Source: Naegleria gruberi (taxonomy: Eukaryota). From it: a stretch of DNA of 64,000 nucleotides. The stretch lies in NCBI GenBank assembly GCA_000004985.1, contig GG738902.1. One strand, 5' to 3'. The notes beneath the pieces are model-generated. The model saw only the letters and a list, made by a program, of their open reading frames with translations, made no database searches and had not been told where the DNA came from. Both the position numbers and the translations under genes were made by a program. Positions 12,001-64,000 of this stretch are shown one piece after another (positions within the stretch are counted from its first letter, which is position 1; every line of letters starts with the position of its first letter).

Positions 12001-12491
12001 TTGAAAAGTATGGTTTTATCCATTATAGTACAGGTGATTTGTTGAGAGCTGAAGCTGCTAAGGATACAGAACAGGGTAGAATGATCTCGTCATACATTAA
12101 GGAAGGTAAGATTGTGCCTGGTGCTGTTACTCTTGGTTTGTTAAGAAATGCTATTTTGAACCATCCTAAAAAGGATGCTACGTTCTTGATCGATGGCTTC
12201 CCAAGAGAAATGCAACAAGCTGTTGACTTTGAAGCTCATGTCTGTAAATTCAAGTTTGTCCTCTTCTTTGATTGTCCAGAAGAAATTTTGGAACAAAGAT
12301 TGTTAGAAAGAGGTAAGACGAGTGGTAGATCTGATGACAATGCCGAAAGTATTAAGAAGAGATTCAAGACCTATAGCGACCAAACAATGCCAGTTATTGG
12401 ATACTTTAAGAAGACTGATAGAGTCAAGACAATTGATAGTTCAAAGACACAAGAAGAAGTGTTTGCTGAAGTATGCAAATTATTTGATTAA
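9066..12491 (+). CDS. Pyruvate phosphate dikinase (PPDK) fused in frame to a C-terminal adenylate / UMP-CMP (NMP) kinase domain. The N-terminus carries the acylation-type motif MGCGNSKS.
   Basis: The ORF is uninterrupted (1165 aa from 8994; 1142 aa from the in-frame ATG at 9066). PPDK hallmarks: GGKGANLCEM, TGGLTSHAAVVSRQQGKCCVSGC (phospho-His domain), GLCRTEHMFF, FFSIGSNDLTQMTFGFSRDD, GLCGEHGG and the PPDK C-terminus CSPYRIPIARLSAAQ. Without any stop it continues into ICVNGGPGSGKGTQC (P-loop) ... LIDGFPRE ... FVLFFDCPEE ... RGKTSGRSDDN ... KKRFKTY, a complete short-type NMP kinase from about nt 11926 to 12491. Confidence 0.85.
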   Translation: MGCGNSKSTLGVVETVEEKPKQQATVNNTTNTTTAVMTGTLEPEAPKKKDGFCYFFGLDSQTKENLTEGNKDMKELLGGKGANLCEMCNLGINVPPGFTVSTEACEHFSQLHNLATSAGEEGAEKKNLTLPENIQTQVDEYLKKLEQATGKKFTDSYENDTDKVLLISVRSGAAISMPGMMDTILNLGICDKNITQLVKNFGGNEKFAWDSYRSLVQMFGEVVMSVKPEHFEDNIKKQKEKRGITHDSELNLEEIQQIVQDHKLTIFEQTGGEDFPQDVRQQLYRAIIAVFNSWHNKRAVQYRKIHNITGLKGTAVNIQSMVFGNVDERSCSGVCFSRNPSTGENLFYGEYMIQAQGEAIVAGQRTPEKIETLATNFPECNTSLKEISTKLEKHFKDVQDMEFTIEQNTLYMLQCRNGKKTIQASLKIYCDMIDEGLINEREAISKIDATQLNQMLHPFLDDSEKAHHEPLATGLPASPGAVVGRIAFTSEQAIKMSETRKEDGDVILVREQTSTEDLAGMHASQGFLTTNGGLTSHAAVVSRQQGKCCVSGCSLLYVTSEESCTINGTLFNQGDIITIDGSTGNVYGKALKTTRPGISQPDFVRIMDIEKKYRTMSVYANADTSVDAHKAVEFGAEGIGLCRTEHMFFEKTRIVDMRRMIVASTTEKRQEAINVLKDYQRSDFLSLFHAMEGKKVTIRLLDPPLHEFLPEDPQEIEELALALGESVKDVTLTVSQLKEKNPMLGHRGCRLGITFPEITQMQVEAIFEAAIDATHKGEVVVDIMVPLVQSVQELVNQKEIIEKVASSLFAKHEDRKYLIHYRVGCMIETPRAVLMAKELAGVADFFSIGSNDLTQMTFGFSRDDSGKFLKYYLERDLIENDPFEVLDTEGVGKIIQLTVQTGREAKNGLTVGLCGEHGGESHSVKFLYQCGLSYVSCSPYRIPIARLSAAQESVKNWRNVICVNGGPGSGKGTQCAKLVEKYGFIHYSTGDLLRAEAAKDTEQGRMISSYIKEGKIVPGAVTLGLLRNAILNHPKKDATFLIDGFPREMQQAVDFEAHVCKFKFVLFFDCPEEILEQRLLERGKTSGRSDDNAESIKKRFKTYSDQTMPVIGYFKKTDRVKTIDSSKTQEEVFAEVCKLFD

Positions 12492-40941: not shown

Positions 40942-43900
40942 TTAATCAGCTAATTGCCTATTAGATGGTTTGATTTTAGTGGAAATTTCCCACAAATCTT
41001 CATCTGAATGATGAATAAGACGAGGCAATTCCTCAGTAAAGACGAATTGAAGATAGGCCAATTCTTGGAAGTCATAATTGAGACACAATTGTTGTAGGGA
41101 AGCAACACGCTCCAATGTCTTGAGGAGAATTCTCATCATCTTGTAATTAATTACCTTCTTGTTTGGACTTTTTGGATGGTCTAACAGTGGTTTGTTACCT
41201 TCCTTTGTGAATAAAACTTGACTTTGAAAGCTTCCTAAATATGGAACACATGGTAATTGTTTTTCTGACAAACTGTCATACATGGCAGCAATTTCCTTCG
41301 AATTGATAACCTTCTTTTGACAATCTTCCAATTCTTGATAAAGTTTGTGAACTTCCTTATTGTCTTCATAAAGCTCCTTGATTCTATAGACAGAGGTGGA
41401 TCTGAGAGCTCCTAACAATGCCATAAATCCGAAAAAGTTGTTTTGTTGATAGCATGACTGAGCTGAACACAAGACTTTTGTGAAAACCTTCTTTCTATCT
41501 CTGTCATTTGTTTGAACAAGTACCATTTCGTTCGCCCAATGTTGAACCAGTTTGAAATGCTCTTGCATGAATAGAATATTACTGCTGTACTTTTCTCTAA
41601 TTTCCTTATCCTTGCTTTCAATATAGTAAAATTCGTAAGGTTTGATTTTGAGGAAGAATTTAGCCTCCAATAGAGTAAGTTGATGAGCAATCTCGTTGGA
41701 AGGCCAAGCTACAATATCAAAAGTAATTTTGAACGGATTGGTAATACGTTGAGTAGTAAAGTACAATTCTCTATCGTGATTCCACTTTGACATTGGAATT
41801 TGTGGAGTGGATACCATTTGAAGTGTCAATCCTTTTGGAAGAATGAGTGTCTTGTCTGTTGATTGATCTCCATCTTGTCCAGGGCTTGTAATGTTACAAC
41901 GAGAGCCTGAAGATGCCTGAATGGACAAGACATTCAATAAGAGGGCATTTTGAATCTTGGCAATACTGGAACTGCTACTATCTGACATGTGTTCAATTTC
42001 CCGCATGAAATTAATACTCTTTGCAATACTTAAATTGTTAAAAGCATAAAAACCATCCTTGATTAATCTGGCTGCTGTTCTTTCTAAATTAATCTTGGCA
42101 ATAAACAAATTGTCCTTCTTGGAGGAGTCCATCTTTGATTGTTGATTCAAGTGTTTGTACTTGGAAATGAGAATATCAATAATGTGCTCTGGAGAACTAA
42201 ATAAATTATATGTCAAGTAGAACATTTGAGAAAAGTTTTCAGTATTTTCAATATCATTCTCTGGATTAAATCCTAAAATCTTATTAATGGATGCTTCCAA
42301 TGTTGCTGCCTTGAGAGATTTAGATTCCAAATCGACAATGTAGTCCTCAGGTTCGGCTTCATTAATATTGCTAATGGAAGATGCCTCTATTCTACTCAAA
42401 TATTCACTCAATAAAATATCACTACAGTTAGCACAGTGTGCTCTGAACACATCTGTATCATAGTCCAAGTCGTTTGCATCTGGACAAAAGACCAACAAGC
42501 TGTGAGATTTTTCCATGAACATTAATAAAGCAATGAGTAATCTAAACTTGTTTTCCTTCTTTAAGAATTTCATAGACAAGTCTCTTGAATTACTAATTTC
42601 ATGAACACTGATTCTCTCAGCAAAGTTGGTAATAAGCTCTGTCATGACACTTTTAACCATTATAAAGCAAGTATTACCATCATGTCTTAAAAGTGAGTGA
42701 ATGACTGTGTGTCGAATGAGTTGAATTAGTTTGTATAATAGTGCCTCAACAGTATCATCATCTGCTGCACTATCTGAAACATTTTCCAAAACAGAAATCA
42801 AGTGCTTGGTCATACCTCCTTCCTTTCCTATAAATAAGTTAAAGATTAAATAGACCACAATTTGATAAGATTTGCTAACAAAGTCAAGCTTTTTGGATTG
42901 TTGTTCAGATCTCTCTTTTGAAATACCTCTGAATGAAAGTACAACATTCTTGAAAAACTTTAAAACGTAAAATATAATACTAATGTCATTCAGATCGTTA
43001 GCAAAATAGAGGGTCTTTTTCTTCCACCACTCAATCAAGGTATCTCTATTACAATTTCTCATGGTCCACAACATGATAGTACTCAGAATAATATTAATTT
43101 CGTTGAATTGTTTGAGTTTGAGCAAAAGTTCTTCTCCTTTGGTAAAGAAGTTGTCAACTAATGAATTAAATAAAATTCCAATGACTCGCTCACGTTGTTC
43201 CCTCGATTGATATCTTTCATCATAATCAATCTTGATGAAAAGATCAAGGAAATATTTGGCTGTCTTGAAAATTATCTTTTCATTGCCAGCCTCAATTGAT
43301 TCCAAGAAGAAAGTAATGAGCTTGCTTACGAATGCGTTTTCCTTTCCAGCAGTGTCCAAATCCCAAATAGAGTGATAATCTGTAATAATAGCCAAAGATT
43401 CACTCAATAATCTAGAAGCAGTATCCTTGGAAGTGCATCGATTTACCTTTTTACAATAAAAATCAAAAACACCAGCCGATTCAGAATACCCCAAAAATGG
43501 AATTAAATCTCTGATAAATAGAGCAATATTTCTGTTACAGTAAACTACCAAATTATTGTTAGCTGCATTGTTGGTACCTAACAGTTTTTCCATTCCTTCA
43601 AAAAGTAATTGGATAAGACTCTTTGAAAGTTGAATAAGATCTGCCTCTTCATAATTTTTAACACCTTTGGATTGTGCAACAAGGAGACTCTTAATAGCCA
43701 TATCGAAAATAAACCAAGAATATCTGCATGACTCTGATTCAACACTGATATCGTCTTGTTGCTTTTGCTCCTTGCTATGCATGTAGAGAATGAATAAACT
43801 CAACAATTTGCAATGTAAAGTTTCATAATTAAATACATATTTCACATATCCAGAGAAAAATCTATTACCACGAGAGCTATTTCCACACAAGTCATGGAAG

Positions 43901-46900
43901 TGGTTCATACAAGTTACCAAGGCATCAAATGTTCTCACCTGAAGGTCTGATCTAATCTTCTCATGAGTAGCTATATCCTTGACGAATTGGTCACTATCGG
44001 AATAGTTCAGAATTTCTAGAAGAATATCAAATATCAAGTACATGTATGGCATACACAAGCTGAAATCTATCAATACAATCTTGTTGTATAAGTGATAAAC
44101 AATATATTCTAGAATGGCTGATTTTTGAAGAGATGTACTCTTTGTAAATGCATTATAAGCAGCAAATAATAATTGCAATCTTTCATCGGGTGGTTGAATA
44201 GTAGAGACAAGATTTGCATCAATTTTGAGTTTGGCTTTTTCAGTAAGTTTGTTAGACATCAAGTCCTTCTCACTGGCTGACAAGTAACCAGGATTTAGTT
44301 TTGAATAAATCATCAATGTCTCATTAGTAACACTTTGTCTAATTGCCATATAATTCACAAGTAAATCACCAAATATTGTCTTATCTGCTTCATAGACAGA
44401 ATTCTTTGCTGCCAATGGTAAGAAGGCATAACCAAGAATGTTTCTATTAGAAGAACCGAAATGAGCATTTCTAATATCTAGGGAGTCCATATATTTTTGA
44501 ACTTTACCTTTAGAATCCTCAACATCAATACTGTAGAATGTAAATAACAAGTGATGGCCTGCAGTAATGTTTTCAGAGGTGAGTCCCAACAAGTCAACCT
44601 TAATTTCATCAACAAAGTGTACATTTTTCTTTGTATTGTTGGCGAGACTGGAGAATTGATATCTTTGTAGTTTGTTATTGTATTTTCCAATCAATCGTTT
44701 CAACATTTTGCTCTCAGTATTGGTAGTAGAGATAAAATCTTCTGGAGATGGCTTAGAGAGATCATTTTCTCTTACAGCCACTTCAATTAGTAAATGTTTA
44801 CATGATTTAACTCCTCCCAACCGAGCAAACTTTAAATGAATGTACATCATGTTCTTATAGACCATATTTGGATATCTTGATTTTGTCCAAGGAATTTCTT
44901 CAATAATATCTTCATTCATTTCCTCTTCTAGCATTAAATTGGATTTGTTTCTTCTCTTTTGTGATTCTGTACTTCTACGGTGAGGTGAATCTGGACGGAA
45001 TGGGTCTGTCCTCTCTTCATCCCAGAAATCCAATGAGAATGTATCATCCTCAATGTAACTAGATTGTTTAGTGAGAGTTGAACGAGAGAATGAACTCTTC
45101 CAATCCTTTTCCAATCTCGACTCGATAGTAACTTTACCTTTGATATGGTAAGCTTGAAGTCCGTTGTGTGAACTCTGAGGATCCAAATGTTTCAATAGAG
45201 TGATAATGTTAAATGTTTCAATATTGGCATCCACAATGATTGGATAAAACCTTTCCAAAACAATCTTATTAAAATTCAAATCAATCTTGGTGTCATCAAT
45301 ATTTTCCGAGAAGAAGGATGAGCTCATTGAGTTTGAGGCTGTATTGCTGAAACTATTATTTAAACTTGTACCTTTCTTTTGTGCGAAAAGTTTACAAAAT
45401 CCTAGCAAGAAGGACTGTTCAAAGTGAGCTAAAGTTTTCCTTCTCTCATCATTAGTATTATTCTTCCTGTCCTTTGAAGAACCTCCAAGTTCTTCTGCGG
45501 CCTCTTGTACTGTACTATGGGGAGCAATTCGTCTCACAACAAGAACACAATAAACTTGATCATGTGGATAACTAACATGGAAAGTTTTTTCTTGCACAAT
45601 TGTTGGAGGCATTCTCAAATGTTCTTGTGCAGATGGAGGAAGAGTTGAAAGTTGAGCCTCCGTGAGGAAATTAAAATACCAGTCCTCACTAATCTTCCTC
45701 TCAGTCTTGCAATCATACAACGAAAGGGAGAATGTGAATAATTCTCTCGAATCAACCATCAATGAAAAATCAGACACAGACAGAGTAATAGTAATCTTGC
45801 TCTTGACAGGAAACTCGAGAGATGGCAATGTCCTATGGCACAGAATTAAATCCAAAGGTTTGTACTCATAGTATGGTTTGAGAAGCATCATTAACCTCTC
45901 TTCCAGAATTTCATTCTTGATATTCATGTCAGCAGCTGTTGGAGCACTACTCAAGATTGCATTTCCAAATTTGGCAGACAATCTTCTATTTCCGTTAACT
46001 GAATATGTGAGCTCGTTGATAAATGTAACCATTTCATCATTTAAATTTTCCTTGGTAAGATCCTCCAATTTTCTTTCCTCTGTATTAATATCAATTTCGG
46101 CATAGATATCAGCCGTCTTGATATCATTAATCGATTGAGAAATGCTGACATTAGCAGAAGAAGAATTGCCTTCTCTAGGTGAAGTTTTTGGAGTATTGGA
46201 ATCATCCTGTTGTTGTTTGTTCCAAAATCCTGAAAATCTCATTGAAAGAGTCTTTTGTCTTCTCTCTTGTTTGTCAACTTTTCCAACATCCAATTTTAGA
46301 CTACTCTTATTATTATCATTACTTTCACTCATTAAATCACTTTCACTCTTCTTCTTTTTCAAAGATGACAATGCACCCTTGATTGCCTTTCCAATAGATC
46401 CTTGTCTAGTGAGTCCCTTTCCACTTCCGTTTGCATTTTCCATATAACTGTGAGGTAGTGGACTAGAATCTCCAAATATTGCCTCTTGACTTCTTTCATC
46501 TTCCAATTCTCGAATGGCTGATAAATGTTTCAAGAAGGAATCACCTCTACCTCGTTTAATTGATTGAGATGACAAGGCAATACTAGATAAAGTCTGAGAG
46601 GGAGGAGAAGAAGGTTGTTGTCTGGAAGAAGTGATTGAAAGAGGAGCAACTTGTTGTTCATCATAACCTAGAGGATTCTTACTCCTGAATGGAGGTAATA
46701 TTTGTTTATATTGACAGTCTTCATTCAAATCCCAAACGTATTCAAAATAGCAAGCTCTCGACAGGGCACTATTATGAAATGCATTAGATGTTGGAGAAGT
46801 TGGTGGTATATTTAAACCATTATTTGCTGCAATTGTTGCTGATTGATCAAGAGCAGAGAGTGCTGTTTCCGAATTTGAAGTTCTAATAAGTTGTGAAAGC

Positions 46901-47808
46901 ATTGAATTGTTAGTATTGCTATTATTGCTGTTAGAAGAACGTTTTGGAGTTTGATTGAGAGATGAACTTGTAGAGGAAGGAGGTGTTGGTGAAAAGGAAG
47001 AAAACGAAGGACTCTTCTTGTATGATGATTGTTGAGTTTGTTGCTGAATGGTATTAAGTGATAATGGCCACACATACATCTTTTCAAAGTGTTTCATCAT
47101 TCCGTGTGGAACAGCATGATGTAATCGATACAATATCGAATCATCACTCAGTGGAGCCGATTGTCCCATCATTAATTGTGGAGAGAATACATTAAATTCC
47201 TCATCATTCTCCATCATCACTCCCATAGAATTTAAATTATTATCCTCATCTTCCGTTAGAATGGTCGTACTCGTATTGCTATTATTTGTTTGACTCGATC
47301 GAGTTGCCGAGTTATTGTTGTTATTGTTTTGTTCTTGGGCAGATAAATTATTTGTTGCCGCCACATAAAATTGATTTGCCGTAAATAACGAAGCAGAGGG
47401 AATGATCAAATTGGAGGGAAAATCAAAACTTGTTTGTGGTTTGTGTACTGAAGAGTTTGTTGTTGTTGATGATGAAGATATTGTATTATTGTTAGAATTG
47501 GTGGTCCAAAATTGATGATATAAATTATTAGAGGGGAAGACTTTAGGAGTAACCGATGCTGTTGTTGCTGATGCTGATACTGTTGATGATGAAACATTAT
47601 TCATCATTATTGTATTATTATTTGGAAGGGAGAGAAGTAGACTGGGACATTTGTAGTAGAATGATGGATAGGAACCAGATGGTTTCAATCTGCTATTACA
47701 TTCGACAATGTATGGATACATTGTTTTGTATGAATTGTTATCTATTTGATGTTCATTAGGTGATGATGGTGATATAATGGGTGAACCAATTGTGATGTTT
47801 GGTTGCAT
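40942..47808 (-). CDS. Large (2288 aa) Ras guanine-nucleotide exchange factor: a C-terminal RasGEF (CDC25-homology) domain with an upstream REM-like region, and a long Asn/Ser-rich N-terminal part of unknown function.
   Basis: The C-terminal ~300 aa carry the CDC25 signatures IAHQLTLLEAKFFLKIKPYEF, NNFFGFMALLGALRSTSVYRI and CVPYLGSFQSQVLFTKEGN. The ORF is uninterrupted and starts with ATG. Confidence 0.8.
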   Translation of the reverse strand: MQPNITIGSPIISPSSPNEHQIDNNSYKTMYPYIVECNSRLKPSGSYPSFYYKCPSLLLSLPNNNTIMMNNVSSSTVSASATTASVTPKVFPSNNLYHQFWTTNSNNNTISSSSTTTNSSVHKPQTSFDFPSNLIIPSASLFTANQFYVAATNNLSAQEQNNNNNNSATRSSQTNNSNTSTTILTEDEDNNLNSMGVMMENDEEFNVFSPQLMMGQSAPLSDDSILYRLHHAVPHGMMKHFEKMYVWPLSLNTIQQQTQQSSYKKSPSFSSFSPTPPSSTSSSLNQTPKRSSNSNNSNTNNSMLSQLIRTSNSETALSALDQSATIAANNGLNIPPTSPTSNAFHNSALSRACYFEYVWDLNEDCQYKQILPPFRSKNPLGYDEQQVAPLSITSSRQQPSSPPSQTLSSIALSSQSIKRGRGDSFLKHLSAIRELEDERSQEAIFGDSSPLPHSYMENANGSGKGLTRQGSIGKAIKGALSSLKKKKSESDLMSESNDNNKSSLKLDVGKVDKQERRQKTLSMRFSGFWNKQQQDDSNTPKTSPREGNSSSANVSISQSINDIKTADIYAEIDINTEERKLEDLTKENLNDEMVTFINELTYSVNGNRRLSAKFGNAILSSAPTAADMNIKNEILEERLMMLLKPYYEYKPLDLILCHRTLPSLEFPVKSKITITLSVSDFSLMVDSRELFTFSLSLYDCKTERKISEDWYFNFLTEAQLSTLPPSAQEHLRMPPTIVQEKTFHVSYPHDQVYCVLVVRRIAPHSTVQEAAEELGGSSKDRKNNTNDERRKTLAHFEQSFLLGFCKLFAQKKGTSLNNSFSNTASNSMSSSFFSENIDDTKIDLNFNKIVLERFYPIIVDANIETFNIITLLKHLDPQSSHNGLQAYHIKGKVTIESRLEKDWKSSFSRSTLTKQSSYIEDDTFSLDFWDEERTDPFRPDSPHRRSTESQKRRNKSNLMLEEEMNEDIIEEIPWTKSRYPNMVYKNMMYIHLKFARLGGVKSCKHLLIEVAVRENDLSKPSPEDFISTTNTESKMLKRLIGKYNNKLQRYQFSSLANNTKKNVHFVDEIKVDLLGLTSENITAGHHLLFTFYSIDVEDSKGKVQKYMDSLDIRNAHFGSSNRNILGYAFLPLAAKNSVYEADKTIFGDLLVNYMAIRQSVTNETLMIYSKLNPGYLSASEKDLMSNKLTEKAKLKIDANLVSTIQPPDERLQLLFAAYNAFTKSTSLQKSAILEYIVYHLYNKIVLIDFSLCMPYMYLIFDILLEILNYSDSDQFVKDIATHEKIRSDLQVRTFDALVTCMNHFHDLCGNSSRGNRFFSGYVKYVFNYETLHCKLLSLFILYMHSKEQKQQDDISVESESCRYSWFIFDMAIKSLLVAQSKGVKNYEEADLIQLSKSLIQLLFEGMEKLLGTNNAANNNLVVYCNRNIALFIRDLIPFLGYSESAGVFDFYCKKVNRCTSKDTASRLLSESLAIITDYHSIWDLDTAGKENAFVSKLITFFLESIEAGNEKIIFKTAKYFLDLFIKIDYDERYQSREQRERVIGILFNSLVDNFFTKGEELLLKLKQFNEINIILSTIMLWTMRNCNRDTLIEWWKKKTLYFANDLNDISIIFYVLKFFKNVVLSFRGISKERSEQQSKKLDFVSKSYQIVVYLIFNLFIGKEGGMTKHLISVLENVSDSAADDDTVEALLYKLIQLIRHTVIHSLLRHDGNTCFIMVKSVMTELITNFAERISVHEISNSRDLSMKFLKKENKFRLLIALLMFMEKSHSLLVFCPDANDLDYDTDVFRAHCANCSDILLSEYLSRIEASSISNINEAEPEDYIVDLESKSLKAATLEASINKILGFNPENDIENTENFSQMFYLTYNLFSSPEHIIDILISKYKHLNQQSKMDSSKKDNLFIAKINLERTAARLIKDGFYAFNNLSIAKSINFMREIEHMSDSSSSSIAKIQNALLLNVLSIQASSGSRCNITSPGQDGDQSTDKTLILPKGLTLQMVSTPQIPMSKWNHDRELYFTTQRITNPFKITFDIVAWPSNEIAHQLTLLEAKFFLKIKPYEFYYIESKDKEIREKYSSNILFMQEHFKLVQHWANEMVLVQTNDRDRKKVFTKVLCSAQSCYQQNNFFGFMALLGALRSTSVYRIKELYEDNKEVHKLYQELEDCQKKVINSKEIAAMYDSLSEKQLPCVPYLGSFQSQVLFTKEGNKPLLDHPKSPNKKVINYKMMRILLKTLERVASLQQLCLNYDFQELAYLQFVFTEELPRLIHHSDEDLWEISTKIKPSNRQLAD

Positions 47809-53535: not shown

Positions 53536-54756
53536 TTAGATGTGATTAAATAAAATCTCTACATCAGATAATCTTTGTTCTCTACATTTCCAAAATAACC
53601 TCTCCTGCATTTCTCTTTCAAATTGTTCTGGTTTTCTATTGCCATTCAAGAGACAAGGAGAAATGAATGTGTTTTTCGAATTATGATCTAATATTCTCTC
53701 CAATACACTATTCACTTCTTCCATTTCTGTAGTATTCACAATATGAAAGGAATGAATCTTGTTAAATTCCATCTCATTTTCGAAATCCAAATAATGAGAA
53801 ACTATGGAATTAACAACCTTCTTCAGCTCATGCTTATTAATAATGTCTTTAAATTCAGGTCTCATTTTGAAATTTCCCAAATTAATTGAATGTCCTTTTT
53901 GTAATTTCTTAATTAGAATATCTGGTTTTGTAAAGATTACAATTTTCCTTGCTCTTCTTAAAAAATTCGAATTTATCAATTCTCCTAGCAACATTTTCGA
54001 TTCTTGCATCCTCAAAGTTCGTGCGTCCTCAACTGTATATTGATCTAGCTCCGCAAGTGATACCAATAAAATGGCAAGTGATTGACCATTGAAACAATTA
54101 ATCCATTTCTTTCTTTGACTTCTAGATCCTCCCACATTCTTAACAAGAATGTTATTGTATTTGAAATCTCGTACTCCCATTGAACTTGTATAGGATAAAG
54201 CCATAGGAAAGAATTCACTTTTTGATTTAATTCTGGAAATTAATTCTTCTAAATTTTCCAAAATTAGTAAGTTCATTACAATGTTAGGATCTTTGATATT
54301 TTCGGAAATGTTAGGACTGATTGCATTCCATTTAGTTTCGAATGATTCTCTAAAAAATGGAATATTCCAAATATACATCAACAATCCACAATAATCAAAT
54401 TCTGAAATTTGTGAATCATCAATATTTGATTTATCATTCAAATTCTCCAAACATGGTCCGAAACTCTTTGGAATCATGTCGATTATTCTATTCCTTTCAC
54501 TTTCTTCCAAAATAGTCCACAATCTTTTAATCATCAGGGAGCAAACTATTTGTAAATCATGATTAAACTCATCTCGATTCGAATAGTTTCGATTCTTCCT
54601 CAAAATACGTTCAATCATATAATAAAACGTTGAAGTTCCACTATCAGCTGTTCCCAAAATAATCCATTCATCTTCAGTTGATAATAACTGCTCTTGGTGA
54701 ATTGTTATTGTTGACTTTCCGATATCTGGTTTAGTACGTGATGACTTCGAGCCCAT
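53536..54756 (-). CDS. Heterotrimeric G-protein alpha-subunit-like protein with degenerate nucleotide-binding and catalytic motifs (candidate pseudo-GTPase). The N-terminus is MGSKSS (N-myristoylation consensus).
   Basis: Collinear with G-alpha by eye. G1 is ILGTADSGTST where the consensus is GAGESGKST (Lys to Thr). G3 is NVGGSRSQRKKWINCF where the consensus is DVGGQRSERKKWIHCF (Asp to Asn; the catalytic Gln to Ser). G4 is FTKPD where the consensus is NKxD. G5 is IVNTTE where the consensus is TCATDT. Confidence 0.65.
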   Translation of the reverse strand: MGSKSSRTKPDIGKSTITIHQEQLLSTEDEWIILGTADSGTSTFYYMIERILRKNRNYSNRDEFNHDLQIVCSLMIKRLWTILEESERNRIIDMIPKSFGPCLENLNDKSNIDDSQISEFDYCGLLMYIWNIPFFRESFETKWNAISPNISENIKDPNIVMNLLILENLEELISRIKSKSEFFPMALSYTSSMGVRDFKYNNILVKNVGGSRSQRKKWINCFNGQSLAILLVSLAELDQYTVEDARTLRMQESKMLLGELINSNFLRRARKIVIFTKPDILIKKLQKGHSINLGNFKMRPEFKDIINKHELKKVVNSIVSHYLDFENEMEFNKIHSFHIVNTTEMEEVNSVLERILDHNSKNTFISPCLLNGNRKPEQFEREMQERLFWKCREQRLSDVEILFNHI

Positions 54757-55426: not shown

Positions 55427-56407
55427 ATGATCAAACTCTCCACTCGTCTCCCCAAAGGATTTCTCTCCACAACCTTCAAAAAAACTTCCAATCCTCATCA
55501 CCGATCATTAATTTCCACTTTAAGAAAATTCACATCATCACCAACAAACGAACGCAAATTTCACAACAACTTGATTTCTCCTCTTCGTTCCTCCAATAAT
55601 AACAAATTACATAATTTCGGAGATGCTGATGAAAATGGTGCTGAAAATGACAAGGTGAGGAACAAGAAAAGAATTGGAGAATTGAATGATCTGTTAGAAT
55701 TTAATCCAAATTTCACAGATGCCTTGATTGAAAGATCAAAATGTTATGAAGGGTTGAGTGAATGGAAACTTGCAAGTGCTGATCTAGAGAAGGTTTTAGA
55801 GATTGAACCAAATAGAGATGATATTGTTTCACATTTGGAACAATTATATTGGTTTTATATACAAAAGGAGAATTACAATGTTAAATTGGCTAATAATTAT
55901 TTGGAAAGAGCATTTGAAATTGTTTCGAATAATGCAGTTCAAGTGCCATTTTCATATTATAGGTCACTTTATTCCATCTGTTATGAATTGGAACAGTTTG
56001 AAAAGGCTATTTCTTATGCAACAAAGGGAATTAAATCGATTGAGTCAACTGGACCAATTGAAATTGGAAGTAAGGAAGCTGATGATTTGGCTGCATTGTT
56101 ATGTAGAAGAGGAAGTGTATTGATTACAAAGTTTAAAATGATTGAACGTGGAAGACAAGATTTAGAACGAGCTCTCTCATTAGCTTCCTCAAAATACGAA
56201 CCTCTAGTTCTCATGTTAGATTCTTTCAAATATTTAAAGAACCACGATCTAGTTATGGAGACGTACAATTTAGTGAAAGAACTCGAAAAGAAGGAGACTA
56301 GAACGGATGAGAAAACCTTATTAGAATATCAAAGGGTTTGGTTAGGATTCAGAGTTGATTTATTTGGGTTGTTTAAGAGATTACTTAGTGAAGATTCATA
56401 TCATTGA
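55427..56407 (+). CDS. TPR-like helical-repeat protein with a basic Ser/Thr-rich N-terminal presequence (possibly organellar). It is the last gene before the subtelomere.
   Basis: The first ATG, in an A-rich context, is at 55427 (the ORF-track start at 55373 is TTG). Paired amphipathic helices with TPR-like spacing. The assignment is by eye. Confidence 0.45.
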   Translation: MIKLSTRLPKGFLSTTFKKTSNPHHRSLISTLRKFTSSPTNERKFHNNLISPLRSSNNNKLHNFGDADENGAENDKVRNKKRIGELNDLLEFNPNFTDALIERSKCYEGLSEWKLASADLEKVLEIEPNRDDIVSHLEQLYWFYIQKENYNVKLANNYLERAFEIVSNNAVQVPFSYYRSLYSICYELEQFEKAISYATKGIKSIESTGPIEIGSKEADDLAALLCRRGSVLITKFKMIERGRQDLERALSLASSKYEPLVLMLDSFKYLKNHDLVMETYNLVKELEKKETRTDEKTLLEYQRVWLGFRVDLFGLFKRLLSEDSYH

Positions 56408-56588
56408 TTATATTTCTTATCATCTATAAATGATGTAAATTTGATGGTTTCATTTCTTATATTGATAGATATATAAAGGTCAGGTCAGAACTAACTTTTG
56501 TATTATGGACTTTGAGAAGTCAAATGTTTGGGACGTGAATCTACTCATTAGATTGAATAGGTATTGCTAATAAAGTAACATTTCATTG

Positions 56589-57780
56589 ATTTATTGATTA
56601 TAACGGTCAAATTGAGTTGAATGGAAGTGATTCTAATGTTGATTCATCGTGGAATGGGTAGTTTCGCCACGAAGTGGTGCAACTACCAACCTTTGTAGAT
56701 TGAATCAGGTTGATTTGCATGCAATATGAAATATCTAGCATTATCAAGAGTGATTATTCACCAATTCAATGATCAATATTCAATAATCGGTTTGATTTCA
56801 ATCAATAGCTTGATCAACAAGCTTTGAATATTAATATTCCAGTAATTAACGGCAGTCTATTTTTAAATTTAATCAAAGACCATATTTAGTAGCTTGACTT
56901 TTATGATCTGGAAACTATCTAGATGTGTTCTATATTGAATAATCTATTTGAAAATGAGATGAATTAACTCTTCTATTGAGTTTTATTGGTATTGGATGCT
57001 ATTACGGTTATAATAATCTACACAGAAATGACTCTTCAAATATAAACTGTACTACAATGTATGAGAAACATAATGGTGGTGGAATTAATCAATAACTCGT
57101 TGAAATGACTGAGATGGAATGTAAACTATGGTCTATTTGTCATGTAATGGTGACTAGACAGTGTCAATTTCATCAAATTATTTCAAACTGATTACAATCA
57201 ATAAAAACCCGTTCTATACATCAAACATGTCATATAGAATGAGTTCCAACATTTAATATTGTGAACTGACTCTGTTGGATACCATCTCTATAAATATAAC
57301 AAGATGAAAAGTGCCAATACTCAATTTCACATGTATGTTACTATGGAGAGTCATCATTATATCATATAGATAGGTAATATTTCAAGTTTCAGTGGAATTG
57401 ACTGTCTAGATATTGAGATGTGTTTACTAAGGTTGATGAAGTGTCACCTTCACTGAATCCTGACATGAATATAACAATTGAACATACTATTCTTGTGTCA
57501 ATAATTCATTATTCAATGATTGTGATATGATGGTAAAATTTAATTTTGGAAATATAATTCTTCCCTATTGACAACCTTAGATGTTCCTTAGTTGACTTGA
57601 AGATATTGAGCCATCAACATGAAACTTTCTCAGATTGTTGTCCTCATCAAGGGAAGTGTATTCATGTTTGACACTTGTATGATGTTTTGTAAATTGACTG
57701 AGATGGTATACATTCTATATGTTGAAATGTGACAATATGATAGATTGTTATTATTATCATACTGAATTCAATTATAACAG
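56589..57780. repeat. Subtelomeric segmental duplicate A1 (about 1.2 kb; roughly 90% identical to A2 at 58549..59600).
   Basis: Direct comparison: ttattgattataacggtcaaattgagttgaatggaagtga ... gttgaaatgtgacaat recurs after the first N gap, with scattered substitutions and one roughly 130-bp indel. Confidence 0.8.
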
Positions 57781-58498
57781 ACTAAAATTGATACCATATA
57801 TACAATAGTGTGATAAAACATATCTGGTTAAGTTACAGGATGATTGGATGTACTTTCACTGAGCTGGAGTGTTCACTAGGATATATATAGTGTTAACATT
57901 AAACATTTACTGATTAATTTTATGAAAGTAGTTTGAAATGTTTCTAAACTATTGTAGATGTATTTAATTGATATATAGACTATGTGGTATCAATTCTAGA
58001 CTTTTTATATGTAAAATGAGTGAGTTGGAGTATAATCTATGATATCATGTCAAATGTCTATAGTAAATTGATAGAGTTGACAACTCGACATCTACTGAAC
58101 CAATATTCATGAAATTGATACCACATACTAATTAGAGTGTCTGCATACCATGATATCAATTTCAGTGAAATTGGAGTTGTTTCTGGACCCTTCAGATTTC
58201 CATCCATTCTCCTGACAAATCACCATGTACTATCTACTGGATACATTTCTTGAAATGAAAACATATAATTTGATGAAAGTACACTTTATTTGAGATGTAG
58301 AACACGATATTATCATTTATTTTGAGATTGGTAACTTTTCCTATAGAGTGTAATCCTTAATTGTCTTAATTGACTAAAAGAGGTCAAGGAGAGATTTCAA
58401 ATCATAAAATAAATTATATTTTCGAGATTTACTATCGATTTCCAATCGATTGATATGTATTTTGTAGATTGACGAAGTGGTTCTCTATTGAAGATTCC

Positions 58499-58548
58499 NN
58501 NNNNNNNNNNNNNNNNNNNNNNNNNNNNNNNNNNNNNNNNNNNNNNNN
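58499..58548. other. Scaffold gap (50 N).
   Basis: Run of N characters. Confidence 0.99.
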
Positions 58549-59600
58549 TTATTGATTATAACGGTCAAATTGAGTTGAATGGAAGTGAATCACATGTTGA
58601 TTCATCGTGGATGGGTAGTTTCGCCACGAAGTGGTGCAACTACCAACCTTTGTAGATTGAATCAGGTTGATTTGAATGCAATATGAATAAGTAACATTAT
58701 CAAGAGTGATTATTCACCAATTCAATGATCAATATTCAATAATCGGTTTGATTTCAATCAATAGCTTGATCAACAAGCTTTGAATTATTATTCCAGTAAT
58801 TAACGGCAGTCTATTTTTAAATTTAATCAAAGACCATATATAGTAGCCAGAAATCACTCTTGAAATATAAACTGTACTACAATGTATGAGAAACATAATG
58901 GTGGTGGAATTAATCAATAACTCGTTGAAATGACTGAGATGGAATGTAAACTATGGTCTATTTGTCATGTAGTGGTGACTAGACAGTGTCAATTTCATCA
59001 AATTATTTCAAACCGATTACATTCAATAAAAAACCGTTCTATACATCAAACATGCCATACAGTATGAGTTTCAATATTTAATATCGTGAACTGACTCTGT
59101 TGGATACCATCTCTATAAATATAACAAGATGAAAAGTGTCAACATTCAATTACACATGCATGTAACTATGAAGAGTCATCATTATATCATCTAGATAGGT
59201 AATATTTCAAGTTTCAGTGGAATTGACTGTCTACATATTGAGATGTGTATACTAAGGCTGAAGAAGTGTCACCTTCACTGATTACTGACATGAATATGAC
59301 AATTGAATATATTATTGTTGCATAAATAATTCATTGTTCAATGATTATGATATGATGGTAAAATTTAATTTTGGAATTAAGATACTTCCCTATTCATTAC
59401 CTTAGATGTTCCTTAGATGACTTGAAGATATTGAGCCATGAATATGAAACTTTCTCAGATTGTTCTCCTCATGAAGGGAAGTGTATTCATATTAGATACT
59501 TGTATTATATTTTGTAAACTGACTGAGATGGTATATAATCTATATGTTGAAATGTGACAATTTGACAGATTGTTATTATTATCATATTGAATTCAATTCT
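58549..59600. repeat. Subtelomeric segmental duplicate A2. It starts at the gap edge and ends at the junction with the gene-fragment/telomere-seed.
   Basis: See A1. The copy diverges from A1 after gaattcaatt. Confidence 0.8.
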
Positions 59601-59603
59601 AGT

Positions 59604-59690
59604 GGGTTTGGTTAGGATTCAGAGTTGATTTATTTGGGTTATTTAAGAGATTACTTAGTGAAGATTTTGGTTTGGGTTTGGGTTTGGGTT
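59604..59690 (+). repeat. A 63-bp duplicate of the 3' end of the TPR gene (a copy of 56335..56397 with 1 mismatch), joined directly to a short interstitial (TTTGGG)4 telomere-repeat block (59666..59690).
   Basis: gggtttggttaggattcagagttgatttatttgggttRtttaagagattacttagtgaagatt is followed by ttggtttgggtttgggtttgggtt. Confidence 0.85.
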
Positions 59691-61016
59691 AGACGAAAAC
59701 CCATCGACGACTAACGAACGGCCAATATTGAGTATCTGAATTTCATATATGTCATTCAAATATAAATAAAAAGCTTATATTGTAACGAAGCAGTCATATC
59801 TCAAAGTAGTTATAGAGATAATCAACTCTGATAAAATAAAAGTTAGGTTTTCCCGGTATTACTCTATGAATATGGAGATCGCCGGTCTGGATTAAATATA
59901 TGTAGTAGATATAAATATGAGTTGACTATATTCGCAAATAAATTTGAAAAATATCATTGCGTTCAAAAATAATAAGGCACTTCCTGAAATATTAAGATAT
60001 TTACCCTAGTAGGTCTAAAATTTCAAAGTTGGGTTGAAATGTAAATTTTAGTATATTGTAGATATATATATGAATAGATGATATTATGAATTAATCATGT
60101 TGAATCGGTGTATTTAATAAGTTACAACATGTCTAAAAATTAACTTTTCAACATTTATTGTACTATAATATGAATGTTATTACAATCATCACTAATCTCA
60201 TATATATGATGTATAATGATGATATTCACATTGTAGAAGTGTTGGAAGTATAATATATGATATCCTTAGTATACTGTACTCATTCTACCTTAATTGACCA
60301 AGATATTGAGCCATACTATGGAAACACTATACCAATTTATTAAACTTGTTAATATTTTAGTAAATATCAAATATAATCATATATAATTGAAATAATTATT
60401 ATTTGATCCATATTCAGACTGTAGGAAGTCTACTTGTGTGAAATTGACAATATCGGTTATTGAAGGATGAATATCTTACATGACTTAATTCCACTCATTG
60501 ATACATGTCTAATTATCGTATTTTATGATATGTAATTGAAATAATTGAAATCTATCATATATTTAGGGAGATAACCAATTAGGATGAGAGTAGGGGAAGT
60601 TACGCTTACTATTTACCAGGTAAACACTTTCAATAGGGACCCATATATTTTATTTGATAATATCGTATATATATGCATTTTATCGACAAATAATTGGTAT
60701 CATGGTTTTATATCCTATATTATCAATTTGGGAAATGTTGCAATGTCTAATCTCAATAGAAATATTGCCATAATACCAATTATTGATTATATATCATGAA
60801 ACTGATATTATTGACTCTAATTGATGTTTATATGAATATATGATTGAAATATTTGATTTTTGACATTTCTTAATGACATGGATAGTTCACTAAGGTAGTG
60901 ACTTTGCCATATGACAACTGTCTAAGATGATATTGAAATCATTCCTAAATTGATATTATGATAGTATTAGATGATTATAACACGATAGTAATGAATTGGA
61001 AGTGATTCTTACCATT

Positions 61017-62068
61017 TATGACATGTAAGAATGTTACCTTTGATCAATTGGACCACTAGCTTGACAGATATCCCATTTATATAGATATTGATTTCTATCA
61101 CTCAGAAACGTTACCAATATCATTTATAAGAGTAGTGGTATGATATTCTATCTTGTTGTACTTCTTGGTATTGACTTGTCATATTGTCATGAGTAGTTGC
61201 TGACATGGTTAAATGACATGAAAAGTGAATGAAGTCCAAATGATATGAAATTGATAAGAACCTCATTATATGATGTTAATAACATATTGTATCAATTTGG
61301 TAATGAATCTCATTGTCCTTAGGGTACTTCCCTATTGAGGTACCTTAATTGACTATCTCAATATTTAATATGTGATATGATATTTATTTCAATTGTATCA
61401 TGTTATATATGTAATTTGAAGCATTTTGATATAAGTTTTGATATTTAAATATGATTTAATAGATATCATATATAGCAACTCTTAGTTTTTCAAAATTGAC
61501 TTTGAGATACTCTAATTGACCATATATATATGACCAATTAATGAAACTAATATCAATCGACTAGATTTTCAATTGTGAACACAATGGTATCAACAGTTAT
61601 ATGATTCATGATAGTTTAAAATTGCGTTGGTCATCTAAGGATAGGTCATTAAGGTTTGAATGAATTGATATGAAATTCAATACCAATTATTGATATACCA
61701 TGATTTATTGATCTATATATGATATTATAATTGAAATATTTTAAAATTAATATCATTTGACTATTTTGACATTCATAATTCTCATGATTACACTCCTGAC
61801 ATGTTGGATGATTTCATATTGTCTTGAAACTGATATACTAGTGTTTGTACACCACTAGTAAGGTACTGTATCAGTTTCATGATGATCTGTATAGTGGATG
61901 TAATTGTCACATCCCTGTAGGTGTCAAGTAGATCAGCCAAGTACCATGTATGATATGGATGATCTTCAAAATCAAATAGATATATTTAATTATCATGTAT
62001 AGATGTATTAGAAGTGAATTGAAGTGGAAAAGATTTCTATCTTCAGTGTTAGTATAGGTCAGTTGACA
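61017..62068. repeat. Subtelomeric duplicate B1 (1052 bp, essentially identical to B2). It is followed immediately by an interstitial telomere array.
   Basis: tatgacatgtaagaatgttacctttgatcaattggacc ... cttcagtgttagtataggtcagttgaca is present twice with the same length. Confidence 0.85.
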
Positions 62069-62212
62069 GGGTTTGGGTTTGGGTTTGGGTTTGGGTTTGG
62101 GTTTGGGTTTGGGTTTGGGTTTGGGTTTGGGTTTGGGTTTGGGTTTGGGTTGGGTTTGGGTTTGGGTTTGGGTTTGGGTTTGGGTTTGGGTTGGGTTTGG
62201 GTTTGGGTTTGG
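62069..62212 (+). repeat. Interstitial (TTTGGG)n telomere-repeat array (about 24 units), running into an N gap.
   Basis: Perfect gggttt hexamers with occasional gggtt variants; the G-rich strand is on the + strand. Confidence 0.9.
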
Positions 62213-62262
62213 NNNNNNNNNNNNNNNNNNNNNNNNNNNNNNNNNNNNNNNNNNNNNNNNNN
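62213..62262. other. Scaffold gap (50 N), with a further single N at 62264.
   Basis: Run of N characters. Confidence 0.99.
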
Positions 62263-62264
62263 TN

Positions 62265-63316
62265 TATGACATGTAAGAATGTTACCTTTGATCAATTGGA
62301 CCACTAGCTTGACAGATATCCCATTTATATAGATATTGATTTCTATCACTCAGAAACGTTACCAATATCATTTATAAGAGTAGTGGTATGATATTCTATC
62401 TTGTTGTACTTCTTGGTATTGACTTGTCATATTGTCATGAGTAGTTGCTGACATGGTTAAATGACATGAAAAGTGAATGAAGTCCAAATGATATGAAATT
62501 GATAAGAACCTCATTATATGATGTTAATAACATATTGTATCAATTTGGTAATGAATCTCATTGTCCTTAGGGTACTTCCCTATTGAGGTACCTTAATTGA
62601 CTATCTCAATATTTAATATGTGATATGATATTTATTTCAATTGTATCATGTTATATATGTAATTTGAAGCATTTTGATATAAGTTTTGATATTTAAATAT
62701 GATTTAATAGATATCATATATAGCAACTCTTAGTTTTTCAAAATTGACTTTGAGATACTCTAATTGACCATATATATATGACCAATTAATGAAACTAATA
62801 TCAATCGACTAGATTTTCAATTGTGAACACAATGGTATCAACAGTTATATGATTCATGATAGTTTAAAATTGCGTTGGTCATCTAAGGATAGGTCATTAA
62901 GGTTTGAATGAATTGATATGAAATTCAATACCAATTATTGATATACCATGATTTATTGATCTATATATGATATTATAATTGAAATATTTTAAAATTAATA
63001 TCATTTGACTATTTTGACATTCATAATTCTCATGATTACACTCCTGACATGTTGGATGATTTCATATTGTCTTGAAACTGATATACTAGTGTTTGTACAC
63101 CACTAGTAAGGTACTGTATCAGTTTCATGATGATCTGTATAGTGGATGTAATTGTCACATCCCTGTAGGTGTCAAGTAGATCAGCCAAGTACCATGTATG
63201 ATATGGATGATCTTCAAAATCAAATAGATATATTTAATTATCATGTATAGATGTATTAGAAGTGAATTGAAGTGGAAAAGATTTCTATCTTCAGTGTTAG
63301 TATAGGTCAGTTGACA
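62265..63316. repeat. Subtelomeric duplicate B2. Unlike B1 it continues into 314 bp of unique AT-rich DNA before the terminal telomere array.
   Basis: See B1. Confidence 0.85.
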
Positions 63317-63630
63317 AGTTGAATAGTAAACATCCTGAAATGATACCAAAGTATTTGAAATTGATATATATTGTTATTAACATGATTTAAAAGGTGATAT
63401 ATTGATTTGAAATGATTTTGAAATGTTTTCATTGATATTCTAATTGTCTAATCTATTATATGAAATTAACTTATATAAGTCATTATAATGATGTAATATT
63501 ATGTTATATTATGATTATATATTCAATTTGGAGTATATTGATATATAATATATTGATTTATAATGAGTATTTATTGAGATAATTAATTAAGAAGAATAAA
63601 AGTCAAAAGGTTGGGTCTGACCTTAGTCGT

Positions 63631-64000
63631 GGGTTTTGGTTTGGGTTTGGGTTTGGGTTTGGGTTTGGGTTTGGGTTGGGTTTGGGTTTGGGTTTGGGTT
63701 TGGGTTTGGGTTTGGGTTTGGGTTTGGGTTTGGGTTTGGGTTTGGGTTTGGGTTTGGGTTTGGGTTTGGGTTTGGGTTTGGGTTTGGGTTTGGGTTTGGG
63801 TGTTTGGGTTTGGGTTTGGGTTTGGGTTTGGGTTTGGGTTTGGGTTTGGGTTTGGGTTTGGGTTGGGTTTGGGTTTGGGTTTGGGTTTGGGTTTGGGTTT
63901 GGGTTTGGGTTTGGGTTTGGGTTTGGGTTTGGGTTTGGGTTTGGGTTTGGGTTTGGGTTTGGGTTTGGGTCCGGGTTTGGGTTTGGGTTTGGGTTTGGGT
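63631..64000 (+). repeat. Terminal telomere array (TTTGGG)n, about 60 units, with the G-rich strand running 5'->3' toward the window end. Variants: GGGTT (one T missing) several times, GGGTGTTTGGG near 63800, and GGGTCCGGGTTT near 63968.
   Basis: Uninterrupted hexamer array to the last base of the window, so this is the right-hand chromosome or contig end. Confidence 0.9.

What the first reader, a model, noticed from the sequence alone, without database searches (positions are those of the whole stretch)
61017..63630. Two identical 1052-bp subtelomeric copies, one ending directly in a telomere array and a gap, the other extending 314 bp further to the terminal telomere
B1 (61017..62068) is followed immediately by about 24 TTTGGG repeats and then a 50-N gap. 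B2 (62265..63316) starts at the gap, is essentially 100% identical, and continues through 314 bp of unique sequence to the terminal array. This is what one would see if two alternative chromosome-end haplotypes, or two telomere-addition points, had been concatenated by scaffolding. It could also be a real tandem duplication containing an interstitial telomere tract. Either way the true chromosome end structure is ambiguous. Spurious ORFs made of PK/GF dipeptides and X residues arise here.
Basis: seen in the sequence. Interest (0 to 1): 0.5.

Follow-up and report, generated by a model that had tools for sequence, protein, structure and literature searches.

The report
Chromosome end assembled twice by scaffolding
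The two identical 1 kb copies at this Naegleria gruberi chromosome end are most likely one stretch of DNA assembled twice, because the sequencing reads split there into a shorter and a 313-bp-longer version of the end; this is a draft-assembly artefact, not a new genome feature.

Summary
61017-62068 and 62265-63316 are 1052/1052 identical. Copy 1 runs straight into 24 TTTGGG units and a 50-N gap. Copy 2 begins at the gap edge, then continues through 313 bp into a telomere array of at least 371 bp.

The window is the end of a Naegleria gruberi scaffold from the Sanger draft, and TTTGGG is that species' candidate telomere repeat.

The two copies lie on separate contigs, and no sequence path links telomere tract 1 to copy 2. 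Copy 2's left edge is a contig end (T-N-T), not a biological junction. Both gaps in the window are exactly 50 N. True repeats nearby are only 92-98% identical.

Best reading (about 0.7): one locus was assembled twice because reads fork at 62068 into "telomere" or "313 bp more, then telomere". The scaffolder then laid the two overlapping contigs in tandem.

The shorter end probably reflects a truncated, telomerase-healed homologue or subclone, since its junction is regular from the first repeat unit. That step is inferred.

A real tandem duplication around an interstitial telomere tract is not excluded (about 0.1). Only reads can settle it.

A genuine fossil interstitial telomere tract at 59665-59690 was noticed nearby. 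Interest is low.

The parts
61015..62068 (+). Copy B1: the subterminal 1054 bp of contig B (58549-62212). AT-rich and non-coding.
   Evidence: Identical to 62263-63316 apart from one N. Has no Pfam, Rfam or tRNA match.
62069..62212 (+). Telomere tract 1: 24 units of TTTGGG (two are TTGGG), G-rich strand pointing outward. It ends contig B at the gap. The junction ACA|GGGTTTGGG is regular from the first unit.
   Evidence: TTTGGG is the candidate N. gruberi telomere repeat (PMC3622300).
62213..62262 (.). Scaffold gap of exactly 50 N. A single N follows at 62264.
   Evidence: The only other gap in the window (58499-58548) is also exactly 50 N.
62263..63316 (+). Copy B2: the first 1054 bp of contig C. 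It starts at the contig edge with T-N-T.
63317..63629 (+). Distal 313 bp, present only in the longer version of the end.
   Evidence: No clear copy was found elsewhere in the window; the best local alignment scored 56 and was not tested against shuffles.
63630..64000 (+). Terminal telomere array of at least 371 bp, running to the end of the window. It starts with irregular units (TGGG, TTTTGG) and then becomes regular TTTGGG.
59665..59690 (+). Short interstitial telomere tract inside contig B: TTTTGG, three TTTGGG, then TT. It has sequence on both sides, so it is a real internal tract and a fossil of an earlier end event.
   Evidence: It is 26/26 identical to 63634-63659.
59604..59666 (+). A 63-bp copy (62/63 identical) of 56334-56396, which lies near the 3' end of the last ORF. 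It directly abuts the interstitial telomere tract.
58549..59601 (+). The start of contig B is a 92-96% copy of 56591-57776, with a 129-bp indel. It begins exactly at the first 50-N gap.
58499..58548 (.). First scaffold gap, 50 N.
55427..56407 (+). Last clear gene before the end, a TPR-like ORF. Everything distal to it (about 56.4-63.6 kb) is gene-free subtelomere with lower GC.

Best explanation
The tandem duplication is not in the genome. It is one locus assembled twice.

In the DNA that was sequenced, a Naegleria gruberi Sanger shotgun, molecules of this chromosome end came in two versions that are identical up to window position 62068 (= 63316). A longer version carries 313 more bases and then its telomere. 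A shorter version has TTTGGG repeats joined directly to position 62068.

The assembler met a fork at that point. One branch, B plus telomere, stayed in contig B. The reads of the other branch formed the small contig C, which reaches about 1 kb back into the shared sequence. Mate pairs then placed contig C 'after' contig B, and the unmerged overlap was written as a placeholder 50-N gap. This created an apparent repeat with a 1248-bp period and an apparent interstitial telomere.

What is shown: the fork, the contig and gap layout, and the 100% identity.

What is inferred: the negative true gap, and the biology of the shorter version. That version is most likely a terminal truncation healed by telomerase on one homologue of this polyploid, heterozygous strain, or in part of the culture. 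The longer version would then be ancestral.
For: - Organism and data type. An ORF in the window is 100% identical over 406 aa to an N. gruberi predicted protein on a 305,921-bp record. The N. gruberi NEG-M assembly is Sanger-based (PMC9928731 Table 1). TTTGGG is the species' candidate telomere repeat (PMC3622300).
- Layout. The window has only two gaps, both exactly 50 N, which gives three contigs.
- Separate contigs. The two copies lie on different contigs. Copy 2 starts at the very first base of contig C with a low-quality T-N-T and no telomere repeats. Nothing therefore connects telomere tract 1 to copy 2.
- Identity. The copies are 1052/1052 identical. The other repeats in the same subtelomere are 92.2%, 95.7% and 98.4% identical, so a true duplication here would have to be extremely recent.
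- Contig end. Tract 1 has the outward G-strand orientation, carries no non-telomeric sequence after it, and stops after only 144 bp. A physical DNA end would look like this.
- Junction types. The short-form junction is regular from the first unit (ACA|GGGTTTGGG). The terminal junction, and the fossil interstitial tract, both start with an irregular TTTTGG unit. This fits a young healed end beside an older native end.
- Base rate. [quoted passage not shown] The same paper notes that duplications on separate contigs, unlike those inside one contig, lack an unambiguous read path (PMC2864568).
- Source of two forms. Naegleria is described as mainly a heterozygous diploid (PMC9928731). A 2026 preprint cites an SNP-frequency-based ploidy analysis of N. 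gruberi and counts about 160 kinetochore foci. Several homologues that could differ at their ends are therefore present.
Against: - No reads, depth or mate-pair data could be examined, so the fork and the negative gap are inferred from the consensus alone.
- The assembler's gap-size convention could not be verified. If every gap is written as 50 N regardless of estimate, the gap length carries no information.
- The homology of copy 2 runs into the gap, so a longer real duplication hidden by the gap gives the same picture.
- This chromosome end does contain one genuine interstitial telomere tract (59665-59690). Internal tracts are therefore possible here, and this one could even have templated a real duplication.
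- The short-form junction shows no G/T-rich seed or microhomology (ACA|GGG against ACA|AGT). That is neutral to slightly unfavourable for telomerase healing.
- The short form could rest on a single chimeric clone.
Confidence: 0.7

Rival explanations
1. The tandem duplication is real. The chromosome truly reads B, then an interstitial (TTTGGG)n tract, then a second copy of the subtelomere including B, then 313 bp, then the telomere.

A concrete route exists. The telomere of a truncated end (B plus TTTGGG repeats) invaded the short interstitial tract at 59665-59690 on a sister or homologue. Break-induced replication then copied 59691 to the end. This would duplicate 2378 bp, of which about 1.3 kb would be hidden in the gap.
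For: - Copy 2's homology runs to the contig edge and could continue into the gap.
- An interstitial telomere tract in the same orientation exists 1.3 kb upstream of B1 and could serve as the invasion site.
- The subtelomere has other duplicated blocks.
- From general knowledge, yeast Y' elements are arranged as tandem subtelomeric units separated by internal telomere tracts.
Against: - No sequence crosses from tract 1 into anything else. Contig B ends after 144 bp of repeats, and contig C begins without repeats.
- Identity is 100% over 1052 bp, against 92-98% for the real repeats nearby.
- The gap is the same 50-N value as the other gap, not about 1.3 kb or more.
- Contig B reads straight through the 26-bp tract at 59665-59690 with no sign of a second fork there.
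- Nearby overlapping contigs in Sanger drafts are overwhelmingly mis-assemblies.
Confidence: 0.1
2. Contig C belongs to a different chromosome end. B would be a subtelomeric element shared at near-identity by two or more ends. The scaffolder would have attached a contig from another end, or from a recently exchanged one, to this scaffold.
For: - Subtelomeres commonly share recently exchanged blocks (general knowledge).
- This subtelomere contains duplicated segments.
- A distal gene has an 80% paralogue on another scaffold.
Against: - No other copy of B, or of the 313-bp segment, exists in the 64 kb available.
- Identity of 100% over 1054 bp is simpler to explain as the same locus.
- The rest of the genome could not be searched: N. 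gruberi is absent from the contig index and from the metagenome collection.
Confidence: 0.1
3. The short form is a laboratory artefact. A chimeric plasmid insert or chimeric read joined a telomeric fragment to position 62068. Only the long end would then exist, and the duplication would still be an assembly artefact.
For: - The junction has no microhomology or seed.
- The tract is short, 144 bp, and ends a contig. A single chimeric clone would be enough to create the fork.
Against: - The repeats are in the correct outward orientation, although that is only a 1-in-2 chance.
- They carry TTGGG variant units like the terminal array.
- Nothing non-telomeric follows them.
- Chimeric clones are a small minority in such libraries (general knowledge).
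Confidence: 0.1

Closest known systems
False segmental duplications from unmerged haplotype contigs ('duplicated overlapping contigs', Kelley & Salzberg 2010, PMC2864568)
   Same: Both involve a Sanger WGS draft of a heterozygous genome. Two neighbouring contigs in one scaffold share near-identical sequence up to a contig end, are separated by a gap, and give the illusion of a recent tandem duplication.
   Different: Here the overlap itself is 100% identical. Merging was blocked by a structural fork, telomere against 313 bp of further sequence, rather than by SNP or indel divergence. In addition, contig B carries a 144-bp telomere tail beyond the overlap.
Chromosome breakage with de novo telomere addition ('healing'), e.g. 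subtelomeric truncations in cultured Plasmodium falciparum, yeast, and human terminal deletions (general knowledge)
   Same: Telomere repeats are joined directly to unique sequence that continues in the intact version. The repeats are regular from the first unit and in the correct orientation.
   Different: Only 313 bp of gene-free DNA is lost and no phenotype is expected. No seed or microhomology is visible. That both forms exist in the cells is inferred from an assembly, not demonstrated.
Tandem subtelomeric elements separated by internal telomere tracts (S. cerevisiae Y' arrays; general knowledge)
   Same: The scaffold as written has this architecture: unit, telomere tract, unit, telomere.
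   Different: In yeast the internal tracts are sequenced through and the units are dispersed over many ends. Here the junction from tract to second unit is a gap, and no other copies could be examined.
Multiple telomere-addition sites of ciliate macronuclear chromosomes (Paramecium uses TTGGGG/TTTGGG; general knowledge)
   Same: Both show a TTTGGG repeat and alternative telomere positions a few hundred bp apart at one end.
   Different: This is not a ciliate. Long ORFs are open under the standard code and a gene is 100% identical to N. gruberi. Nothing suggests programmed fragmentation.

Membership tests
False duplication from unmerged overlapping contigs (assembly artefact) | The two copies lie on separate, neighbouring contigs of one scaffold, separated by a gap | tested here: met
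   Contig B is 58549-62212, the gap is 62213-62262, and contig C is 62263-64000.
False duplication from unmerged overlapping contigs (assembly artefact) | The alignment runs to the contig ends facing the gap | tested here: inconclusive
   Met for contig C, where the match starts at its first base (62263). Contig B has a 144-bp telomere tail beyond the match, which is the fork itself.
False duplication from unmerged overlapping contigs (assembly artefact) | Near-identity of the copies, higher than that of genuine local repeats | tested here: met
   1052/1052 identical, against 92.2-98.4% for the other repeats in 56-60 kb.
False duplication from unmerged overlapping contigs (assembly artefact) | Mate-pair distances fit better when the contigs are merged, and read depth is single-copy | not testable with these tools
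   No reads or mate pairs are available. N. gruberi is absent from the contig index.
Terminal telomere array of N. gruberi | Tandem array of the species' repeat (TTTGGG) with the G-rich strand running 5'-3' toward the end | tested here: met
   Tracts at 62069-62212 (24.3 copies) and 63630-64000 (61.8 copies). Repeat identity is from PMC3622300.
Terminal telomere array of N. gruberi | The array lies at the physical end of the molecule, with nothing distal to it | tested here: inconclusive
   Both tracts end a contig or the window with no distal sequence. However, tract 1 is followed by a gap plus contig C in the scaffold, and the window stops inside tract 2.
De novo telomere addition (healed terminal truncation) | Repeats are joined directly to unique sequence that continues uninterrupted in the intact version | tested here: met
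   62068|GGGTTTGGG against 63316|AGTTGAATAG.
De novo telomere addition (healed terminal truncation) | Short G/T-rich seed or microhomology to the repeat at the addition site (usual, not obligatory) | tested here: not met
   The last shared bases are GTTGACA, and the next base differs (G against A). There is no overlap with TTTGGG.
De novo telomere addition (healed terminal truncation) | Both the truncated and the intact molecules are demonstrably present in the cells | not testable with these tools
   This needs reads, Southern or Bal31 analysis, or telomere-anchored PCR.
True tandem duplication containing an interstitial telomere tract | A continuous sequence path runs from the internal tract into the second copy | tested here: not met
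   Tract 1 runs into 50 N, and contig C starts with no telomere repeat. By contrast, the genuine interstitial tract at 59665-59690 is flanked by sequence on both sides within one contig.

The most novel reading that the evidence does not exclude
The scaffold is right and the structure is real. A truncated end (B plus TTTGGG repeats) used its telomere to invade the fossil interstitial tract at 59665-59690 and copied 59691 to the terminus by break-induced replication. This left a very recent 2.4-kb tandem subtelomeric duplication around a long internal telomere tract.

Two further signs would then fit a history of repeated breakage, fusion and healing at this Naegleria end. One is the 63-bp gene fragment plus telomere tract at 59604-59690. 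The other is the inverted junction-like motif just after that tract. Together they would be the first glimpse of subtelomere dynamics in Heterolobosea.
Probability: 0.1. Interest if true: 0.4.

Novelty: not a real feature. Interest (0 to 1): 0.15.

Why it matters
The main value is as a correction.

- In this widely used draft, the last roughly 1.25 kb unit (copy, telomere tract and gap) should be collapsed.
- The 'interstitial telomere' at 62069-62212 should not be counted as one.
- The dipeptide/X ORFs across it are spurious.

If the shorter end is real, it is a small documented case of telomere-position heterogeneity in Naegleria. Telomere biology in this lineage is almost unstudied: the repeat itself is only a candidate from a genome survey. 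The phenomenon itself is well known from other eukaryotes.

Tried and rejected
- Ciliate macronuclear origin. TTTGGG is also a Paramecium repeat, but long ORFs are open under the standard code and a gene matches N. gruberi at 100%. Rejected.
- Independent assemblies of the locus. Exact-protein look-ups for the two distal genes and for the paralogue found nothing on record.
- Metagenome scans. A 25-mer ending at the fork and a 29-mer spanning the terminal junction both gave no match.
- Function in B or the distal segment. There is no Rfam family, no tRNA and no Pfam hit for the short ORFs. This is gene-free, lower-GC subtelomere.
- Further homology. Sensitive local alignments were run between contig A's tail, contig B's unique part, B and the 313-bp segment. 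The scores were low, 28-56, and no clear further homology was seen; these scores were not themselves tested against shuffles.
- Head-to-head fusion fossil after the interstitial tract. Only a short motif resemblance was found, reached by 11 of 1000 shuffles. It is kept as a note, not a claim.
- Literature on Naegleria chromosome ends. Nothing was found beyond the repeat survey. The review PMC4929615 is not held, and no paper found described how this assembly writes its gaps.

Full report
**What is in the sequence**

The region was read directly and compared by script and by BLAST. Window 61017-62068 and 62265-63316 are each 1052 nt and identical at every position.

The match really starts two bases earlier. 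61015-61017 (TTT) lies opposite 62263-62265 (T-N-T). It is cut on the left by a run of exactly 50 N (62213-62262).

The copies part at one precise point. After 62068 the first copy continues GGGTTTGGG, and after 63316 the second continues AGTTGAATAG.

The tract after copy 1 (62069-62212, 144 bp) has 24.3 copies of a 6-nt unit. Parsed, it is 13 TTTGGG, one TTGGG, 6 TTTGGG, one TTGGG, 2 TTTGGG and a final unit cut by the gap.

Copy 2 is followed by 313 bp with no clear counterpart in the window (best local score 56, not tested against shuffles). An array of 61.8 units then follows (63630-64000) and runs to the last base of the window.

The 314 bp is 313 bp by my count of where the array begins.

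**Where the window comes from**

Long ORFs are open under the standard genetic code: 2306, 1170 and 744 codons, and so on. GC is 33%.

Pfam finds eukaryotic signalling and metabolic genes:
- a DOCK-C2 plus RasGEF protein
- a PPDK fused to adenylate kinase
- a P450
- a G-alpha subunit

The G-alpha ORF (53536-54756, minus strand) is 100% identical over its full 406 aa to an NCBI 'predicted protein [Naegleria gruberi]' on a 305,921-bp record. The window is therefore the last 64 kb of an N. gruberi scaffold.

Three points from the literature matter here:
- A telomere survey names TTTGGG as the candidate telomere repeat of N. gruberi, found in the genome sequence (PMC3622300).
- The NEG-M assembly is Sanger-based, and Naegleria is described as mainly a heterozygous diploid (PMC9928731).
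- A 2026 preprint counts about 160 kinetochore foci in interphase nuclei. It calls this consistent with the karyotyping and SNP-frequency ploidy analysis of the genome paper.

This rules out my first thought, a Paramecium-like macronuclear chromosome, which also uses TTTGGG.

**Contig anatomy**

The window has only two gaps, both exactly 50 N: 58499-58548 and 62213-62262. The end of the scaffold is therefore three contigs:
- Contig A runs to 58498.
- Contig B is 58549-62212.
- Contig C is 62263-64000.

The two copies are on different contigs. Contig B ends in telomere repeats. Contig C begins, with an ambiguous base at its second position, inside sequence already present in contig B. It has no telomere repeat at its start.

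No sequence therefore connects tract 1 to copy 2. The left limit of the 'duplication' is a contig end, not a biological junction.

**Why I read it as one locus assembled twice**

1. Identity is 100% over 1052 nt. The genuine repeats in the same subtelomere are 92.2%, 95.7% and 98.4% identical.
2. The picture is what a fork in the read graph produces. Reads agree up to 62068 and then go either into telomere or into 313 more bases. One branch stays with the main contig. The reads of the other branch form a small contig (at least 1738 bp here) that reaches about a kilobase back into the shared sequence, which is a plausible reach for a few overlapping Sanger reads (read length from general knowledge).
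3. Both gaps are the same round number. This suggests a placeholder for a non-positive distance estimate. It is an inference, because I could not verify the assembler's convention.
4. Tract 1 has the outward orientation, has nothing after it, and stops after only 144 bp. That is expected if clones ended at a physical DNA end. If the tract were an internal tract of moderate length, reads would be expected to cross it.
5. There is a published base rate. [quoted passage not shown] The same paper points out that duplications inside one contig have an unambiguous read path, whereas those on separate contigs do not (PMC2864568).

**What the fork means biologically (inferred)**

If both branches are real, the sequenced DNA held two versions of this end with telomeres 313 bp apart.

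The long-form junction begins with irregular units, TGGG and TTTTGG, before becoming regular. The short-form junction is regular from its first unit, ACA|GGGTTTGGG. This fits an older native junction in the long form. The short form would then be a young, telomerase-made junction: a 313-bp terminal truncation that was healed.

With several homologues per nucleus, a difference between homologues is the simplest source. A subclone in the culture is also possible.

There is no G/T-rich seed or microhomology at the site. This is neutral to mildly unfavourable, and it leaves room for a chimeric clone.

**Rivals**

*A real tandem duplication (about 0.1).* This is not excluded, because copy 2's homology runs into the gap. 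A concrete mechanism exists. The short form's telomere could invade the interstitial tract at 59665-59690, and replication could copy from 59691 to the end. That predicts a 2378-bp duplication with about 1.3 kb hidden in the gap.

Four things count against it:
- the 50-N gap
- the absence of any crossing sequence
- the perfect identity
- contig B reading straight through the 26-bp tract with no sign of a second fork there

*A chimeric clone creating the short junction (about 0.1).* This would still make the duplication an artefact.

**Surroundings**

The last clear gene is a TPR-like ORF ending at 56407. Distal to it GC falls to 27-30%, and nothing matches Rfam, tRNA or Pfam.

Contig B starts, exactly at the first gap, with a 92-96% copy of 56591-57776. 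That copy carries a 129-bp indel, and its identity decays distally from 96% to 79%. It is either a diverged haplotig laid in tandem by the same process or a true subtelomeric paralogue.

Directly after it comes a 63-bp copy (62/63) of 56334-56396, which lies near the 3' end of the TPR ORF. That copy abuts a 26-bp telomere tract, TTTTGG (TTTGGG)3 TT. The tract is identical to the start of the terminal array and has ordinary sequence on both sides within one contig. This one is a genuine interstitial telomere tract, probably a fossil of an earlier healing or capture event.

The bases just after it (ACGAAAACCCATCGACGACTAA) resemble the reverse complement of the terminal junction (TTAGTCGTGGGTTTT). 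The 8-mer and its complement each occur once in 64 kb, and both lie within 20 nt of a telomere tract. A short alignment of this quality is reached by 11 of 1000 shuffles, so this is only a hint.

**Comparison with known things, and verdict**

As a sequence feature, this belongs with false duplications from unmerged overlapping contigs. It differs only in that a structural fork at a telomere, rather than SNP divergence, prevented merging.

The inferred biology, a terminal truncation with de novo telomere addition, is a well-known kind of event. The scaffold as written mimics yeast-like unit-tract-unit subtelomeres, but the defining continuous path from the tract into the second unit is missing.

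I rate the duplication as not a real genomic feature (about 0.9 summed over the artefact explanations, 0.7 for the specific two-ends fork). Interest is low. Reads, an outward-facing PCR or a telomere-anchored PCR would settle it.

Noticed in passing
window 59604-59714: A genuine interstitial telomere tract, TTTTGG (TTTGGG)3 TT, lies at 59665-59690 inside one contig. It sits directly after a 63-bp copy (62/63) of 56334-56396, near the 3' end of the last ORF; that copy itself starts with telomere-like GGGTTTGG. The bases after the tract resemble the reverse complement of the terminal junction motif TTAGTCGTGGGTTTT, though 11 of 1000 shuffles reach the score. It looks like a fossil of an earlier break, healing or end-fusion event.
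   Followed up: partly
window 56591-57776 vs 58549-59601 (gap 58499-58548): The contig after the first 50-N gap begins exactly with a 92-96% copy of sequence 2 kb upstream. The copy has a 129-bp indel, and identity decays distally from 96% to 79%. It is either a diverged haplotig laid in tandem, the same artefact class as the main finding, or a true subtelomeric paralogue.
   Followed up: partly
window 62069, 63630 and 59665: The three telomere junctions are of two types. The contig-B junction is regular from the first unit. The terminal array and the interstitial tract both start with an irregular TTTTGG unit. Variant units (TTGGG, a TG insertion, TCCGGG) are scattered in the arrays.
   Followed up: partly
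window 53536-54756 (-): The G-alpha gene near the chromosome end has an 80%-identical paralogue on a different N. gruberi scaffold (358,576 bp). This may be part of a larger duplicated block between chromosome regions.
   Followed up: no
window 8994-12491 (+): A single 1165-aa ORF combines a complete pyruvate phosphate dikinase (PPDK_N, the mobile domain and the PEP-binding domain) with a C-terminal adenylate kinase domain. This would be a fusion of two enzymes linked through AMP.
   Followed up: no
window 40942-47808 (-): A 2288-aa intron-free ORF combines a DOCK-type C2 domain (982-1209) with a C-terminal RasGEF domain (2039-2226). Two different small-GTPase exchange-factor modules sit in one protein.
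   Followed up: no
window 56408-63629: The distal 7 kb has no ORF of 100 aa or more. Its GC is 27-30%, against 33-36% in most of the gene-dense remainder of the window. It is a short gene-free subtelomere.
   Followed up: partly
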